DNA of 64,000 bases, from positions 682,001-746,000 of the forward strand of contig JAPEUD010000002.1 of NCBI GenBank assembly GCA_026026165.1. The letters are read 5' to 3'. The notes under the pieces were generated by a model. It was not told where the DNA came from and ran no database searches. It saw only the letters and a program-made list of their open reading frames with translations. The position numbers were made by a program, and so were the translations under genes. Source of the DNA: Sarea resinae. Lineage: Eukaryota. Position 1 is the stretch's first letter. Each line of letters opens with the position of its first letter. Positions 246 through 39,764 of the stretch are shown piece by piece.

Positions 246-2539
246 TCTTCCACTTTTGTTGAAGGGAAGAACTCACTCGATAGCGATTAGTATCCTCAGT
301 GCTGCCTTTTCCCAATTCTTTCTCTGACTCTTTCATATACATTCCGCTCATTCAATCTCCCTGCTCCCTTCTCGTAAGGGGCCAAGCGTGCAATTGCATA
401 CCCTACCCTGCTCCGTCTTTTACCCATAGCATGTTCCACACCGCAAATTAGGTATTCCATACCATGGGGATGCCTTTCAGTCGCTACAGAGAAGTAGATG
501 GACGTAGACACTGAACATAGCAAGTCTTCGAAGATCTACGTCCCTATCTCTCTAGCCAGACTTCGATCGCCGTCCCCTCTTACTCACTGTGCTCAATGAT
601 TTCCCGTACGACACGTCATCATATCTAACTAGGTAGGCATTGCTCCAAGAACTACTACAGTGTCCGAGCTAATATATGCCAAACACGAATACCCATCTGC
701 GCTTCCATCGATCCAGAAAATCGTGAAGATCGAAATCACTCGTTCCACCGCCTCAAAAGAATACTCAACCGATTTCTCTGGACGATACTACGAATCTGCA
801 TTCTGCTTCTATCTTTCACATTGTGGGATATATCCTCGGGTCGAGTTGGAAGTGGTTCATGGATGGACCGCCATAAGCGTTACAGACTAGATTAATGAAT
901 TCGTTGCTGCTGATTTAGGTTCCTGACATAGACACCGTCTAAACTGTGATGGTAACCCTCCGCGACAGAGATACTGATTCTGTTGTCCAAGCACGATAGA
1001 CCCTACATGTCGGCACAACAAGCTTTCCCATTCCCCAAACGGCAAAACCACAATATCAAATTCACCAAAAAAGCTCAGGTCCCCCCCGACGGAGGACCCT
1101 ACGAAAACCCACTTTGCGTTTGGGGGTTTTCATGGGGAGGACCGACTACGAATTGTCTTAAGCTCCCATTCTACACATAAGTACATGGGGAAAGGGTTCT
1201 CTTTCTCGACCCTTTATGTTCGACACGCTCCATAAGGGAATCTATGTTATGGGAAACCATAAATGCCCCCAGATTGTGCCACAACCCCACCTATTGGGAT
1301 GAGGAGATGTGAAGTAAATAGATATACCTACCTAGGTTACCTTGTTTGTATTACCCTTACCCTTGGGGGCTCTGGGCCACCATACACGTAGGTAAGCAAT
1401 CCTAGACTGCTAGGCATTCACCCGCGCGTCTCCACTCGTATACACACGCAATGGCACATGCTTCCTCTACGGCATCTAGTAACCCGACCATACCTTGACC
1501 ACTCGTATATGCACCCATGTACTCAACACTCACCCACGCAATGACCCAGCTCACGCCCGGGCTCGCACTTACACAAACACACCAACTACATGTACTCTCG
1601 CAGACACTACATTGATGGCACTACGATGGTATACAGCATACAGCCCACGGTCTTACACCAAGTCACGCGTTTCAAAGAATGAGAGGAAACTGAGTTGCGA
1701 CCCATCAAAAATAAAGAATATATTCAACCCCTGCGACACCAGGCGCTCAAGCCGTCCTCTCTCCCTCGGAAGGCTCCTCGCCTCTCCTGGCTACACGGCC
1801 CGTCGAACGGAACAAGTAGCGGGACAAAGACCTAAGAGATAGTGCTGGAGCGGCACAAGTACACAGCGACGAGGGAAAGTAAACAAGAAGAGAATGGAAA
1901 AAAAATGCCACCTAGACGCCGTAAATGGTTACAGCTCTAGGTCGAGCTAATAGCCACCACTACCCAATTGGGCCCCCACGACCATTGCTGGGGGCCTAAG
2001 TAAGAAAGAAAGGGAAAATTGACGAGAGGCATGCCTGGCACATAGAATGCATATGATGCTAGGGCCAATTCATCCGCGGTATGGAAGGAGTGTAAGAATA
2101 GAAAGAAGTAAAGTATGACAATGATGATAGCGGTAAAGGAAAAGACAAGAGATGGGGTTCGGATAAGTGTTGCTGTTTGGTTGTGACACATTTGACAACA
2201 GAAAGAAGGTAAGAATCCTCAAAAGATCTGTCTGTCCAGGAAAGTGCTAGTCGCGTATCAGATGGAACCTTCGTTACTTGGCTAGTTCGGTACTGCTAGC
2301 TGGCAAGTAAGCTGCGTTTCGGAGGCGGTTGATTGAGAAGGTGCTGAGATTGAGGATCTTCGAAACGACGGACGAGCAATAGTCTCCACTGGAGGCTGAG
2401 ATCAAGCGCTAGAGAGTGAGGTTAGCAATGATCTCAACAAATGAACGCCTGCCAATCAAAGCAAGCAACGACCCAGATTGGGGGAGAACGGGACGGAAGA
2501 ACAGAGAGAGATAAGGTTTACACACCTCATTTCAAGCGC

Positions 2540-36729: not shown

Positions 36730-37947
36730 TGTGCCCCGGCCGGATGCTGAGCGGGTGGGTTTGCAGCTCTTGACCGACAGAACCTGATGAGGAGTATTCC
36801 CACCCTGCAGTGGATTGTTTTGGGGTGGCTTCGACGATGTCGTTGCGGTGCGCAGGGCCGAAGGACGATTCTGGAGTGTTGGGCGGGCTGGATGGGCTGG
36901 ATGTCGGTGATGGTCGGTCGCAGCGTCGTTTCCTGCCTTAGTGTGGGCGGTCCGAACGTGGCCCAATCACGACGGGACTCGTTCGTAGTTTTGGCCGCGA
37001 TCCAAGGATCGTATGGGCTGCAGCGATGCGATGCCAGCGGTGAGATGATGCGGGCAGCAATGGAGGAGACGTGGAGAAAGATGCTGAAGTGCAGGTGGCT
37101 ACTCGGATCATCTATCGTATATCATATATCATATCTCATATCTCTCTACGTCGCTCTATATAAGAGGCCTTCAGGCCCGTCGATGGTTCTCTTTTGCTGC
37201 TGCTGCTCCAGCACCATCTCGTGAGGATCCCACCGCGGTAGGTTTCACCGTCTCTCTCGCCATCCTCTCCCCGACCTCCTTTGATCTTGATGACTTGGGG
37301 GACTGGAGGACTGAGAATCGAGAATTTCTGCTTCCTCTCCTGCGCCCCATGGATCGCCTTCGGGGCTGCGTGGGGACGTGTCGATGACTAAGCGGGTGCA
37401 TTTCGTTCCCGTGGGCTCGACGACTGCGGCCGCCGCCCCTGGTCGCTCTCGCGGTCGCTCTCCCTACTCTCCCTCGGTCTCGCTTCCGGCAGCCCCTTGT
37501 CTCAAAAGGGTCCCGGTGGAGTTCGGTCGAGCGAAGCTGAAGGCAGAAAGACAGAGACAGAAAGACAGTCAGTAGTCAGTTCAATTCTCCATCCAGCTGA
37601 GAAGACACCACATACACCCATAGTCCCTCGTTGCCCCTTTCCCGTTCGTTCCAACCCCGTCACCCATCACCCGTCGCCTCCATTCCAACATCATCTCTCG
37701 TCAGACTCTTCCTCAACACGAGACAGATCCGTACACTCTTTTCGGCTATCCGCTTCAGTTCTTGCCACACGTAGCATACCCTCTTTGTTCATCAAACGCC
37801 CACCCGTCCTGGACATAACCGCTACTGACGCCTCTCTCGTATTCAGCCCCTTTGCTCACCTCTGATCCGTGGTCGGACCAATCTTCATCCCTTGCACAAC
37901 AACCTTTGTCTTCGGCTGCCCTGCTCACGACCATCTGCAACCCGAAG

Positions 37948-38481
37948 ATGGCCTCACGCATTCAGATCCCTCTGGACGCTTTGACGTCGCGTCTCAATCT
38001 CGGTGCTCGTTTCGATAGCGTCCGTTCGCAATCCATCTCCTCGAGATTCGCCAACCTGAAGCCCGTGTCGGAATTCCTCGATGTCAAGCGTCTGTCGAAA
38101 CCCGCCGACTTCACAGAGGTCCAAACGAGGGTCAACTACAACTTGAGCTACTTTTCGAGCAACTATGTGGTGGTCTTTGCCATGCTCAGCATCTACAGCT
38201 TGTTGACGAATATACTCCTTCTCTTCGTCATCCTCTTTGTCATGGGTGGCATGTACGGTATCGGCAAGCTGGGCGGACGCGATCTCGAGCTTGGCTTCAC
38301 CAGATTAACCACCTCCCAACTCTACACCACTTTGTTCGTCATCTCGGTCCCACTTGGCATCATTGCGTCGCCCTTGAGCACTGCCTTGTGGTTGATCGGA
38401 GCAACAGGAGTCAGCATTCTTAGCCATGCATCGTTCATGGACCGACCGATCGAGAATGCTTTTTCCGAGGAGGCGGTCTAG
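37948..38481 (+). CDS. YIP3: PRA1-family prenylated Rab acceptor Yip3 (177 aa)
   Basis: RFANLKPVSEFLD, RVNYNLSYFSSNY, two hydrophobic hairpins, HASFMDRPIENAFSEEAV*. Confidence 0.92.
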   Translation: MASRIQIPLDALTSRLNLGARFDSVRSQSISSRFANLKPVSEFLDVKRLSKPADFTEVQTRVNYNLSYFSSNYVVVFAMLSIYSLLTNILLLFVILFVMGGMYGIGKLGGRDLELGFTRLTTSQLYTTLFVISVPLGIIASPLSTALWLIGATGVSILSHASFMDRPIENAFSEEAV

Positions 38482-38530
38482 GTGGTCGGCCGCGAACTCC
38501 ATACGATGTGCCCCAATGGGGAAGACCATC
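38460..38530 (+). promoter_or_regulatory. putative -1 programmed ribosomal frameshift signal (slippery site, spacer, pseudoknot)
   Basis: T_TTT_TCC at 38460-66; spacer GAGGAG; S1 38473-78 with 38488-93; S2 38481-87 with 38524-30; S3 38497-502 with 38516-21. Confidence 0.6.
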
Positions 38531-39764
38531 AGGGGCGAGACAGGGGAGGGACGGGAGATGGGCGGGGGGACGAGAGAGGCAGTGGGGGGAGCATACCAGG
38601 TTTGAGGAGCTGGACAGCGAGGATGATGATTACTATCGAGTCCGTAGAGGCTCCGAGCCGCAGCGGCGGTTTGTGAGTGACGAACTACGCTTTACGGGCC
38701 TTGATTTAGGACAGGCCAGGAATGCGACGTATGATGATTCATCTTACTCTGATGAGTTGGATGTTGGGGAAGAGGAAGCAGTGACGGTGCAGTTGGCCCT
38801 TCGGGATATTAGAGACAAGGAAGAGATATTGGTTGAAAGGGCTCTACAGAGGATTCGACGGGCACAACTCAAGGGGGAATCGAATGTCACCCTAACGAGA
38901 TCGGAGCTGGATGCTCTGGAGCGAAAGAGGATGCAAACGCGCGACCCAGCGATGCCACAAGGCAAGAAAGGTGGCCCCAGGTCGGCTTCGAGTGGGCAAC
39001 CATCGAGAAGGGCGGTCAGTGACCGCCAATATAGGCCTCCGCAAGAAACTATGCGTCCTAGAGCCGGAACTACAACCGCCTACCCTGACACTAGCTCTGC
39101 TTATGCTTCAGGAACCGTGCCCCCGGGGTTTGCTGCCCCACTACGAGGAGACGAAGCGGCCTATGTGGCAAGGGGTTATGGAGGGCATTCAGCTAGCCTA
39201 CCACCCAGTCCTACCTTGCGATCCAGCTTTCCCCATTCGCCCCCTTCTCCTCGACGCCAACGCCAATATCAAGAAAGTCGATATTATTCTGTCCCCGAGA
39301 CTCTCCAGCCTTCCTCGCGACCTCAATCTTCCTCATCTCGCACTCTTCCCGATGACCCGAATTGGATTCCTCGCTCGCGCTCCGCCTCGTCAACTCCAGC
39401 TGTCCATCCCATCGATGCTTTGGCCTACCAGACCCACCAGCCATCACGCGGCTTCTCTGGCCCCCCTGAAGTCCAGTACTCTTCTGTGCGTCGAGCTCCT
39501 CCATATCCAGCAGGCGCGACAGGCGGGCACACAATGCCAGCCAGCTCCTCGGATCCTACTTTGGCGCGCCGGCCTGTTGGGGCTCCGCTATCCTCAGATC
39601 GCTGGACGGACACTCCAAGTACCGAGGATGACGAGGACGAAGACGACGATGACGATGATAGTGGCGTTCACGTCGAGTTCCCTGAGATCGTCGAGCCTCG
39701 TGCCTCTTCGGTGAGTGGGGCTGCTGCTGGTGGAGGTGGGCGGAGAAGAAGGCCGAAGCGATAA
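38463..39764 (+). CDS. -1-frame ORF overlapping the YIP3 end; probable C-terminal extension of Yip3 (charged helical motif plus long disordered Pro/Ser-rich region)
   Basis: Frame open 38424-39764. The track's start at 38508 is GTG; the first in-frame ATG is at 38931, after the QLALRD..KEEILVERALQRIRRAQLKG..ELDALERKR motif. Confidence 0.75.
   Translation, partial: FRGGGLGGRPRTPYDVPQWGRPSGARQGRDGRWAGGRERQWGEHTRFEELDSEDDDYYRVRRGSEPQRRFVSDELRFTGLDLGQARNATYDDSSYSDELDVGEEEAVTVQLALRDIRDKEEILVERALQRIRRAQLKGESNVTLTRSELDALERKRMQTRDPAMPQGKKGGPRSASSGQPSRRAVSDRQYRPPQETMRPRAGTTTAYPDTSSAYASGTVPPGFAAPLRGDEAAYVARGYGGHSASLPPSPTLRSSFPHSPPSPRRQRQYQESRYYSVPETLQPSSRPQSSSSRTLPDDPNWIPRSRSASSTPAVHPIDALAYQTHQPSRGFSGPPEVQYSSVRRAPPYPAGATGGHTMPASSSDPTLARRPVGAPLSSDRWTDTPSTEDDEDEDDDDDDSGVHVEFPEIVEPRASSVSGAAAGGGGRRRRPKR

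What the first reader, a model, noticed from the sequence alone, without database searches (positions are those of the whole stretch)
38467..38530. Predicted three-stemmed H-type pseudoknot 6 nt after the slippery site, enclosing the YIP3 stop
Seen by manual pairing: spacer GAGGAG (38467-72). Stem 1 is GCGGUC (38473-78) with GGCCGC (38488-93), followed by a 2-nt loop UA. Stem 2 is GGUGGUC (38481-87) with GACCAUC (38524-30). A possible stem 3 is CUCCAU (38497-502) with AUGGGG (38516-21) inside loop 3. This topology and spacing resemble coronavirus-type frameshift stimulators. An alternative extended hairpin (GGAG 38469-72 with CUCC 38497-500) competes with stem 3 and could act as a switch. Folding energies were not computed.
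Basis: partly seen in the sequence, partly recalled or inferred. Interest (0 to 1): 0.8.

Follow-up and report, generated by a model that had tools for sequence, protein, structure and literature searches.

The report
Known YIP3 frameshift signal, fungal ortholog
This is the RNA structure that makes ribosomes slip back one base at the end of the fungal YIP3 gene, a signal already described in Podospora and other filamentous ascomycetes, though its second stem may reach further downstream than the published version.

Summary
The motif is rare by chance: 11 of 127,780 start positions in the window.

The element is not new. It is the orthologue of the PaYIP3 -1 frameshift signal of Pezizomycotina (Malagnac 2013, PMC3777964): shift site U_UUU_UCC followed by a bulged stem 1 and a possible pseudoknot.

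- **S1:**
- **Conservation:** in 17 orthologous sequences, 38458-38500 and 38518-38528 are invariant. Eleven of 12 same-residue codons after the stop never change, against 0 of 41 in upstream YIP3.
- **S2 (38481-87 with 38524-30):** paired in every sequence, and the best crossing helix in 16 of 17. There are only one-sided changes, so it is plausible but unproven. Its 3' arm lies outside the insert used in the published yeast reporter.
- **S3:** its two outer pairs break in 6 and 11 of 16 sequences, so it is not supported.

Verdict: already known; the only new angle is the distal S2 arm.

The parts
37945..38481 (+). YIP3/PRA1 short ORF (178 aa), zero frame, stop UAG at 38479-81
   Evidence: Pfam PF03208 PRA1, E=7.6e-41; translation.
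38460..38466 (+). Shift site U_UUU_UCC (codons UUU 38461-63 and UCC 38464-66)
   Evidence: Invariant in 17 of 17 sequences. Same heptamer as the published PaYIP3 site.
38469..38500 (+). Bulged stem 1. Lower 4 bp: GGAG 38469-72 with CUCC 38497-500. 3-nt bulge GAA at 38494-96. 9-nt loop at 38479-87.
   Evidence: MFE and centroid, RNAalifold consensus, all 10 pairs invariant, -12.7 kcal/mol. The paper describes a conserved 3-nt bulge in stem 1 and a start 2 nt after the site.
38481..38487 (+). Candidate S2 5' arm GGUGGUC, in the loop of stem 1
   Evidence: Invariant in 17 of 17. Codons GGT GGT CGG are invariant at synonymous sites.
38524..38530 (+).
   Evidence: 100% paired in 16 distinct sequences, with 2 pairs switching between G-U and G-C. 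Stacking about -12.9 kcal/mol; top H-type helix pair in 16 of 17. Variant GACCGCC appears in an RNA-library contig.
38511..38521 (+). Possible small hairpin CCCC/GGGG with a 3-nt loop, inside loop 3
   Evidence: Three pairs invariant; the fourth is C-G or U-G, with 1 break in 16. The loop is the most variable spot. -4.5 kcal/mol.
38458..38528 (+). Zone of nucleotide-level conservation: 38458-38500 and 38518-38528 invariant, variable patches between them
38466..39764 (+). -1 frame extension ORF (432 codons after the shift; long form 606 aa); no Pfam domain

Best explanation
The region is the programmed -1 ribosomal frameshift signal of the YIP3 (PRA1, Rab-GDI displacement factor) gene, in a fungus whose protein is identical to a public record named for a Sarea resinae MAG.

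Most ribosomes terminate at UAG 38479-81 and make the 178-aa YIP3. A minority slip back one base on U_UUU_UCC (38460-66) and continue in the -1 frame, making a 606-aa long form.

The stimulator is a G+C-rich bulged stem 1. Its 9-nt loop probably pairs downstream to close an H-type pseudoknot.

Shown here: orthology, the shift site, stem 1, and extreme nucleotide-level conservation from 38458 to about 38528.

Shown elsewhere, in Podospora: the mRNA is colinear with the gene and the long protein is made.

Inferred:
- S2 is the distal 7-bp helix 38481-87 with 38524-30.
- When the heptamer sits in the P and A sites, the lower 4 bp must already be melted. That leaves the upper stem 6 nt away as the effective barrier. 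The ribosome geometry behind this step is recalled, not tested.
For: - **5' ORF:** it is PRA1.
- **-1 ORF:** it has 134 relatives at E<=0.001, of which 120 are listed.
- **Entry into the -1 ORF:** 33 of those 120 show the -1-frame peptide ..GG(L)GGRPR(T/A)P.. upstream of WGRP. The residue at the supposed start is Met in only 8 of the 33. The ORF therefore cannot start there and must be entered from YIP3.
- **Literature:** PMC3777964 describes the same gene, the same heptamer, a stem starting 2 nt downstream with a conserved 3-nt bulge, 12 colinear cDNAs, a GFP-detected long form, and conservation across Pezizomycotina.
- **Invariance:** 17 orthologous DNA sequences are invariant over 38458-38500 and 38518-38528.
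- **Synonymous sites:** 0 of 41 same-residue codons are invariant in 102 upstream YIP3 codons. The figures are 7 of 7 in the overlap and 11 of 12 after the stop (Fisher p=1.6e-10).
- **Stem 1:** it is the MFE and the alifold consensus. Compared by eye with the Podospora insert, 38474:38492 changes C-G to U-A. Pair 38468:38501 is A.A here, A-U in L027, L028, L029 and L032, and G-C in Podospora.
- **S2:** it is 100% paired and the best crossing helix pair in 16 of 17.
- **RNA libraries:** 15 contig pieces from 4 runs lie on the site with no gaps or joints. Two of them (X15, X16) bridge it by 31 nt or more on each side.
Against: - Within my 17 sequences no pair shows a change on both sides. The only compensatory evidence comes from one published Podospora oligonucleotide compared by eye.
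- All S2 changes are transitions opposite G or U. These keep pairing by default.
- Invariant GGA 38520-22, A38523, GAU 38505-07 and G38510 are not explained by S2. Some other constraint therefore also acts on this region.
- One protein, P0105, has GS instead of GG at the S2 5' arm. That would put a mismatch in S2.
- Nested alternatives are predicted to be at least as stable, and the fold z-score is not significant.
- No pseudoknot-capable folding program was available.
- No RNA or protein data exist for this organism itself. The RNA-library contigs come from other organisms, and such libraries can contain DNA.
Confidence: 0.85

Rival explanations
1. The published architecture is the whole story. 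Bulged stem 1 has its loop paired to the proximal segment (38481-84/85 with 38508/09-12). The 38518-30 block is conserved for another reason, such as the WGRP peptide or a bound factor.
For: Four proximal pairs are kept in 16 of 16 distinct sequences, one of them switching between G-U and G-C. The Podospora inserts that the authors call 'the pseudoknot' end at the equivalent of 38514-16. G38510 is invariant although its codon encodes V, M, S or L.
Against: It is only 4 bp with 2 G-U here, -0.9 kcal/mol as a duplex against -8.8 for the distal helix. The fifth pair breaks in 9 of 16. It leaves the invariant synonymous sites of GGA, AGA and CCA unexplained. In yeast the published insert gave 1% shifting and did not stimulate an IBV shift site to IBV levels.
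Confidence: 0.2
2. There is no pseudoknot. A simple bulged hairpin (stem 1) is the stimulator, possibly with a trans-acting factor that recognises the conserved loop, bulge and downstream block.
For: Stem 1 is the only helix with compensatory support. [quoted passage not shown] Nested folds are at least as stable.
Against: The 9-nt loop is invariant and perfectly complementary to an invariant block 37 nt downstream in 17 of 17 sequences. That helix pair is rare by chance.
Confidence: 0.3
3. One reading: S1, S2 and S3 (38497-502 with 38516-21). The GGAG/CUCC pairing acts as a competing switch.
For: All three stems exist in this sequence. The inner four S3 pairs, CUCC with GGGG, are kept in 15-16 of 16. 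CUCC would be freed once a ribosome melts GGAG (inference).
Against: The outer S3 pairs break in 6 and 11 of 16. S3 is only -3.8 kcal/mol as a hairpin, or -1.3 for the inner four pairs. CUCC pairs with GGAG in the MFE, the alifold consensus and the published model, and that helix lengthens through the neighbouring pair 38468:38501 in other lineages. GGGG has a closer partner, CCCY 38511-14.
Confidence: 0.07
4. The two ORFs are joined by splicing, as public gene models imply, and not by frameshifting.
For: The public model P0001 and many others encode fused PRA1-extension proteins.
Against: The P0001 junction needs a 14-nt GT..AG 'intron' at 38410-23, shorter than any known fungal intron (intron-size limits are recalled). 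Other models join the ORFs at different ad hoc points. Twelve Podospora cDNAs were colinear with the gene. RNA-library contigs cross the site without gaps or joints.
Confidence: 0.03

Closest known systems
PaYIP3 -1 programmed frameshift signal of Podospora anserina and other Pezizomycotina (Malagnac et al. 2013, PMC3777964; summarised in Atkins et al. 2016, PMC5009743)
   Same: Same gene (YIP3/PRA1). Same Pezizomycotina-only -1 extension ORF. Same heptamer U_UUU_UCC. Same stop codon inside the structure. Same bulged stem 1 starting 2 nt downstream. The loop sequence UAGGUGGUC is identical.
   Different: Five base differences from the Podospora insert within 38467-38501: two compensatory in the upper stem, two at the base pair 38468:38501, and one in the bulge. 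The published stem 2 must therefore be a different, proximal pairing. This is inferred from the Methods sequences; Figures 1C and 3 are not held.
IBV (coronavirus) frameshift pseudoknot (Brierley 1989; geometry recalled, and cited in PMC3777964 as a comparison)
   Same: G-C-rich base of a long stem 1. A 2-nt loop 1. A 6-7 bp stem 2 stacked directly on stem 1. A long loop 3 of 23-30 nt here. A 6-nt spacer if only the upper stem is counted.
   Different: The shift site is not X_XXY_YYZ. The full stem starts 2 nt after the site. Stem 1 carries a 3-nt bulge. The Podospora element did not replace the IBV knot in yeast. This is a cellular gene with no viral ancestry.
Edr/PEG10 -1 frameshift pseudoknot (as cited in PMC3777964)
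   Same: A cellular -1 frameshift that extends a protein. The pseudoknot has a 3-nt bulge in stem 1.
   Different: Edr/PEG10 derives from a retroelement and uses a canonical heptamer. YIP3 does neither.

Membership tests
Pezizomycotina YIP3 -1 frameshift signal (PaYIP3 type) | The 5' ORF is the YIP3/PRA1 orthologue | tested here: met
   PF03208, E=7.6e-41, profile positions 2-142 of 143.
Pezizomycotina YIP3 -1 frameshift signal (PaYIP3 type) | A long 3' ORF in the -1 frame, homologous to the Pezizomycotina-only extension and with no conserved start codon | tested here: met
   Open 38424-39764. 134 relatives at E<=0.001. Met at the pseudo-start in 8 of 33 sequences.
Pezizomycotina YIP3 -1 frameshift signal (PaYIP3 type) | Shift site U_UUU_UCC a few codons before the YIP3 stop | tested here: met
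   38460-66, codons 173-174 of 178. Invariant in 17 of 17.
Pezizomycotina YIP3 -1 frameshift signal (PaYIP3 type) | Stem 1 starting 2 nt downstream, G-C-rich at its base, with a conserved 3-nt bulge | tested here: met
   MFE structure. 10 of 10 pairs kept in all sequences. Bulge at 38494-96, with variation in RNA-library contigs confined to 38494 and 38496.
Pezizomycotina YIP3 -1 frameshift signal (PaYIP3 type) | The mRNA is colinear with the gene (no splicing or editing at the junction) | tested here: inconclusive
   RNA-library contigs of other organisms cross the site with 0 gaps and 0 joints; 2 of them bridge it. There is no RNA from this organism, and such libraries may hold DNA.
Pezizomycotina YIP3 -1 frameshift signal (PaYIP3 type) | The long fusion protein is actually made | not testable with these tools
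   Shown only for Podospora, by GFP fusion and western blot.
Coronavirus-type (IBV or SARS-CoV) frameshift pseudoknot | Canonical X_XXY_YYZ heptamer | tested here: not met
   U_UUU_UCC. The A-site re-pairing needs a G-U at the middle position.
Coronavirus-type (IBV or SARS-CoV) frameshift pseudoknot | H-type knot: the loop of stem 1 pairs downstream (stem 2) | tested here: inconclusive
   The 7-bp helix is present in 17 of 17 sequences with only one-sided changes. No pseudoknot folding or probing was possible.
Coronavirus-type (IBV or SARS-CoV) frameshift pseudoknot | A conserved third stem inside loop 3 (the three-stemmed form) | tested here: not met
A different 4-bp hairpin at 38511-21 is kept in 15 of 16 but has no covariation.

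The most novel reading that the evidence does not exclude
The real stimulator is longer than the published one. It would be an IBV-like H-type pseudoknot in which the invariant loop GGUGGUC (38481-87) pairs with the invariant distal block GACCAYC (38524-30), perhaps with a small CCCY/GGGG hairpin in loop 3.

The inserts used in the 2013 yeast reporter end at the equivalent of 38514-16, so they lacked this arm. That could explain the 1% efficiency and the failure to stimulate the IBV shift site, without invoking a host-specific factor.
Probability: 0.4. Interest if true: 0.5.

Novelty: already known. Interest (0 to 1): 0.25.

Why it matters
YIP3 was described in 2013 as the first cellular eukaryotic gene, unrelated to retroelements, that uses -1 frameshifting to lengthen a protein. 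Its stimulator is still poorly defined: the shift site is non-canonical, the spacer is 2 nt, and activity in yeast was weak.

This window adds no new phenomenon. The comparison made here does sharpen the picture in three ways:
- The nucleotide-level constraint runs about 14 nt beyond the published insert.
- It ends exactly at the 3' end of a 7-bp helix complementary to the stem-1 loop.
- That gives a concrete, cheap experiment to run.

The comparison also shows that public fungal annotations routinely disguise this frameshift as impossible mini-introns.

Tried and rejected
- **Rfam:** no family reaches threshold on 38350-38650. The best E-value is 2.4 and the hits are unrelated.
- **Earlier notes of this scan:** nothing by place or by sequence.
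- **Viral contigs:** the invariant 17-mer has 0 matches.
- **Thermodynamic significance:** z = -0.65, not informative in this G+C-rich stretch.
- **MFE 3' hairpin (38511-19 with 38526-35):** 5 of its 8 pairs break in some sequences, 90.6% paired overall. Rejected as a conserved element.
- **RNAalifold pairing of the U-run 38460-66 with the purine run 38544-50:** judged a composition effect and not followed up.
- **Protein-level covariation for S2:** the two sequences with Asp in place of the first Gly (P0078, P0115) both keep Ser downstream, which is compatible with an A-U pair. Ser is also what their relatives carry, so this says nothing.
- **Rebuilding full orthologue sequences from the laid RNA-library contigs:** the difference table lists only part of each contig's differences.
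- **Sequencing-run search:** it rested on only 3 sampled words.
- **Literature:** three further searches for later work on the structure found only the 2016 review, an unrelated tRNA paper and a 2022 review whose listing shows one mention of PaYIP3; I did not open the last two.

Full report
**What is in the sequence.** The window is fungal. The ORF from ATG 37945 to UAG 38479-81 encodes a 178-aa PRA1/YIP3 protein (Pfam PF03208, E=7.6e-41). The -1 frame is open from 38424 to 39764 and has no Pfam domain.

- S1: 38473-78 with 38488-93, 6 bp including one G-U.
- S2: 38481-87 with 38524-30, 7 bp including one G-U.
- S3: 38497-502 with 38516-21, 6 bp including one G-U.
- Alternative pairing: GGAG 38469-72 with CUCC 38497-500.
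- The 6-nt spacer follows UUUUUCC (38460-66).
- The stop codon sits in loop 1 and at the first base of S2.

The S1/S2 topology is a proper H-type knot, with L1 of 2 nt, no L2, and L3 of 30 nt.

**Is it more than chance?** I scanned both strands of the window for the same kind of knot. The rule was S1 of 6 bp and S2 of 7 bp, each with at most one G-U, L1 of 1-3 nt, L2 of 0-2 nt, and L3 of 3-40 nt.
- It found 11 of 127,780 start positions, this one included.
- A looser 6/6-bp rule with up to two G-U per stem found 132 of 127,780.
- The motif is therefore rare.
- Folding energy alone is not distinctive. The nested MFE of 38467-38535 is -24.9 kcal/mol, z = -0.65, and 52 of 200 shuffles fold as well.

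**What it is.** The -1-frame protein has 134 relatives at E<=0.001, of which 120 are listed. The top hit is a 100%-identical public model named for a Sarea resinae MAG that fuses PRA1 to this ORF.
- In 33 of the 120 listed proteins, the -1-frame peptide ..GG(L)GGRPR(T/A)P...WGRP.. is visible upstream of the place where other gene models start.
- The residue at that pseudo-start is Met in only 8 of the 33. In this window it is GUG.
- The extension ORF therefore has no conserved start and must be entered from YIP3.

A literature search found that this is published: Malagnac et al. 2013 (PMC3777964). I read the abstract, passages, and sections 14, 15, 20 (part 1 of 2) and 21. The paper reports the following:
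- Podospora PaYIP3 makes a 19.5-kDa short form and a 61.6-kDa long form from one mRNA by -1 frameshifting at U_UUU_UCC.
- Twelve cDNAs were colinear with the gene apart from a 5'-UTR intron.
- Stem 1 has a G-C-rich base and a highly conserved 3-nt bulge.
- The arrangement is conserved in nearly all Pezizomycotina, and compensatory changes are reported.

The 2016 review by Atkins et al. (PMC5009743; one passage read) repeats this. Rfam 15 has no family for the element.

The nested MFE, the centroid and the RNAalifold consensus all give one bulged hairpin. It consists of GGAG+GCGGUC paired with GGCCGC+[GAA bulge]+CUCC, spanning 38469-38500, at -12.7 kcal/mol. This matches the paper's description of stem 1.

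The 2-nt spacer (published) and the 6-nt spacer (reader) describe the same RNA. My inference, from recalled ribosome geometry, is that the lower four pairs must already be unwound when the heptamer occupies the P and A sites. That would leave the upper stem at the canonical distance.

**Orthologous DNA.** One scan of metagenome contigs gave 31 loci, 29 of which hold the site. One scan of prokaryote genome contigs gave one more, a fungal contig in a bin labelled as a bacterium. After removing duplicates over 180 nt, I aligned the window plus 16 loci, 17 sequences in all. Sixteen are distinct within the 122 aligned columns.

These sequences are well diverged:
- Over 102 upstream YIP3 codons, mean pairwise identity is 0.69.
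- At third codon positions it is 0.42.

Yet 38458-38500 (43 nt) and 38518-38528 are invariant in all 17. Among codons with the same degenerate residue in all 17 sequences, the counts of invariant codons are:

| Region | Invariant codons |
|---|---|
| Upstream YIP3 | 0 of 41 |
| Dual-coding overlap | 7 of 7 |
| -1 frame after the stop | 11 of 12 |

Fisher's exact test for 0/41 against 11/12 gives p=1.6e-10. The last invariant codons are GGA, AGA and CCA (38520-28), and variation resumes at 38529.

**Test of each stem.**

*S1 and the lower stem.* All 10 pairs are invariant in my set, which by itself proves nothing. I compared the Podospora insert printed in the paper's Methods with the window by eye. 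I did not type that sequence into any tool. Five bases differ within 38467-38501:
- C38474 becomes U together with G38492 becoming A. This is a compensatory pair in S1.
- A38468 becomes G together with A38501 becoming C. This creates an extra base pair at the foot of the stem.
- A38496 becomes G, in the bulge.

The same foot pair is A-U in L027, L028, L029 and L032. RNA-library contigs vary only at bulge positions 38494 and 38496 within the stem region. Stem 1 is well supported.

*S2.* The distal helix is paired in 100% of cells.
- G38482:U38529 becomes G:C in 5 of 16 sequences.
- G38481:C38530 becomes G:U in 1 of 16.
- One RNA-library contig shows GACCGCC, giving a U38483:G38528 wobble.
- S1 plus S2 is the best crossing helix pair by summed stacking in 16 of 17 sequences, and second by 0.2 kcal/mol in L022.

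There is no double change, however. Because the 5' arm is all G/U apart from one C, any transition in the partner keeps pairing. Rival partners do worse:
- The proximal pairing 38481-85 with 38508-12 keeps four weak pairs and loses the fifth in 9 of 16. It is worth -0.9 kcal/mol as a duplex against -8.8 for the distal helix.
- The MFE 3' hairpin breaks at 5 of its 8 pairs in some sequences.

*S3.* The inner CUCC/GGGG pairs persist, but 38501:38517 and 38502:38516 break in 6 and 11 of 16. CUCC is already used by stem 1. GGGG also has a nearer partner, CCCY 38511-14, forming a 4-bp hairpin whose 3-nt loop is the most variable spot. That hairpin has one break in 16 and no covariation.

**RNA evidence.** Contigs from four RNA-library runs of other organisms were laid on 38380-38620.
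- They gave 15 pieces, none with a gap, and no joints.
- Two pieces, from X15 and X16 in different studies, bridge the shift site by at least 31 nt on each side.
- This agrees with a colinear mRNA. It is weak evidence, because the organisms differ and such libraries can contain DNA.
- The run search rested on only 3 sampled words.

**What may be new.** The inserts the authors call 'the Podospora pseudoknot' end at the equivalent of 38514-16. Figures 1C and 3 and the TIF supplements are not held, so this remains an inference.
- In yeast that insert gave 1% shifting and could not stimulate an IBV shift site to IBV levels.
- The authors suggested a missing host factor or P-site-only slippage.
- The conservation boundary found here suggests a simpler possibility: the reporter lacked part of the structure.
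- With the distal arm, the knot would have a stem 1 of 10 bp plus a bulge, a loop 1 of 2 nt, a stem 2 of 7 bp stacked directly on stem 1, and a loop 3 of 23 nt. As recalled, that is close to IBV geometry.

I put this at about 0.4. Invariant bases not explained by S2 show that another constraint also acts here; these are GGA 38520-22, A38523, GAU 38505-07 and G38510. I found no later paper on the structure in four further searches.

**Verdict.** The element is already known, and its biological role remains unclear even in Podospora, where the short form alone complements a deletion. Interest is low, with a modest, testable refinement of the published structure.

Noticed in passing
window 38410-38423: The public gene model identical to this locus (P0001) joins YIP3 to the -1 ORF through a 14-nt GT..AG 'intron'. 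This replaces the true C-terminus ..VSILSHASFMDRPIENAFS with -1-frame residues. Other fungal models (P0015, P0018, P0036, P0077, P0107 and more) join the two ORFs at different ad hoc points. The frameshift gene is systematically mis-annotated.
   Followed up: partly
L032 (locus 631-751, minus strand): The same fungal YIP3 frameshift site lies on a 226-kb contig of a genome bin labelled as a bacterium (Cyclobacteriaceae). It is probably a eukaryotic contig binned by mistake.
   Followed up: no
window 38511-38521: A small hairpin, CCCY with GGGG, has a 3-nt loop that is the most variable spot of the region. One RNA-library contig has 3 extra bases in this loop.
   Followed up: partly
window 38505-38510: GAU (38505-07) and the third-position G38510 are invariant, although the 38508-10 codon encodes V, M, S or L. 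None of the stems considered explains this.
   Followed up: no
window 38460-38466 with 38544-38550: RNAalifold pairs the U-run of the shift site with a downstream purine run. This probably reflects composition, since the extension ORF starts with a G/A-rich, Arg/Gly-rich stretch.
   Followed up: no
window 38468 and 38501: This position pair is A.A here, A-U in four loci, and G-C in the published Podospora insert. The foot of stem 1 lengthens in some lineages, shrinking the spacer to 0-1 nt.
   Followed up: partly
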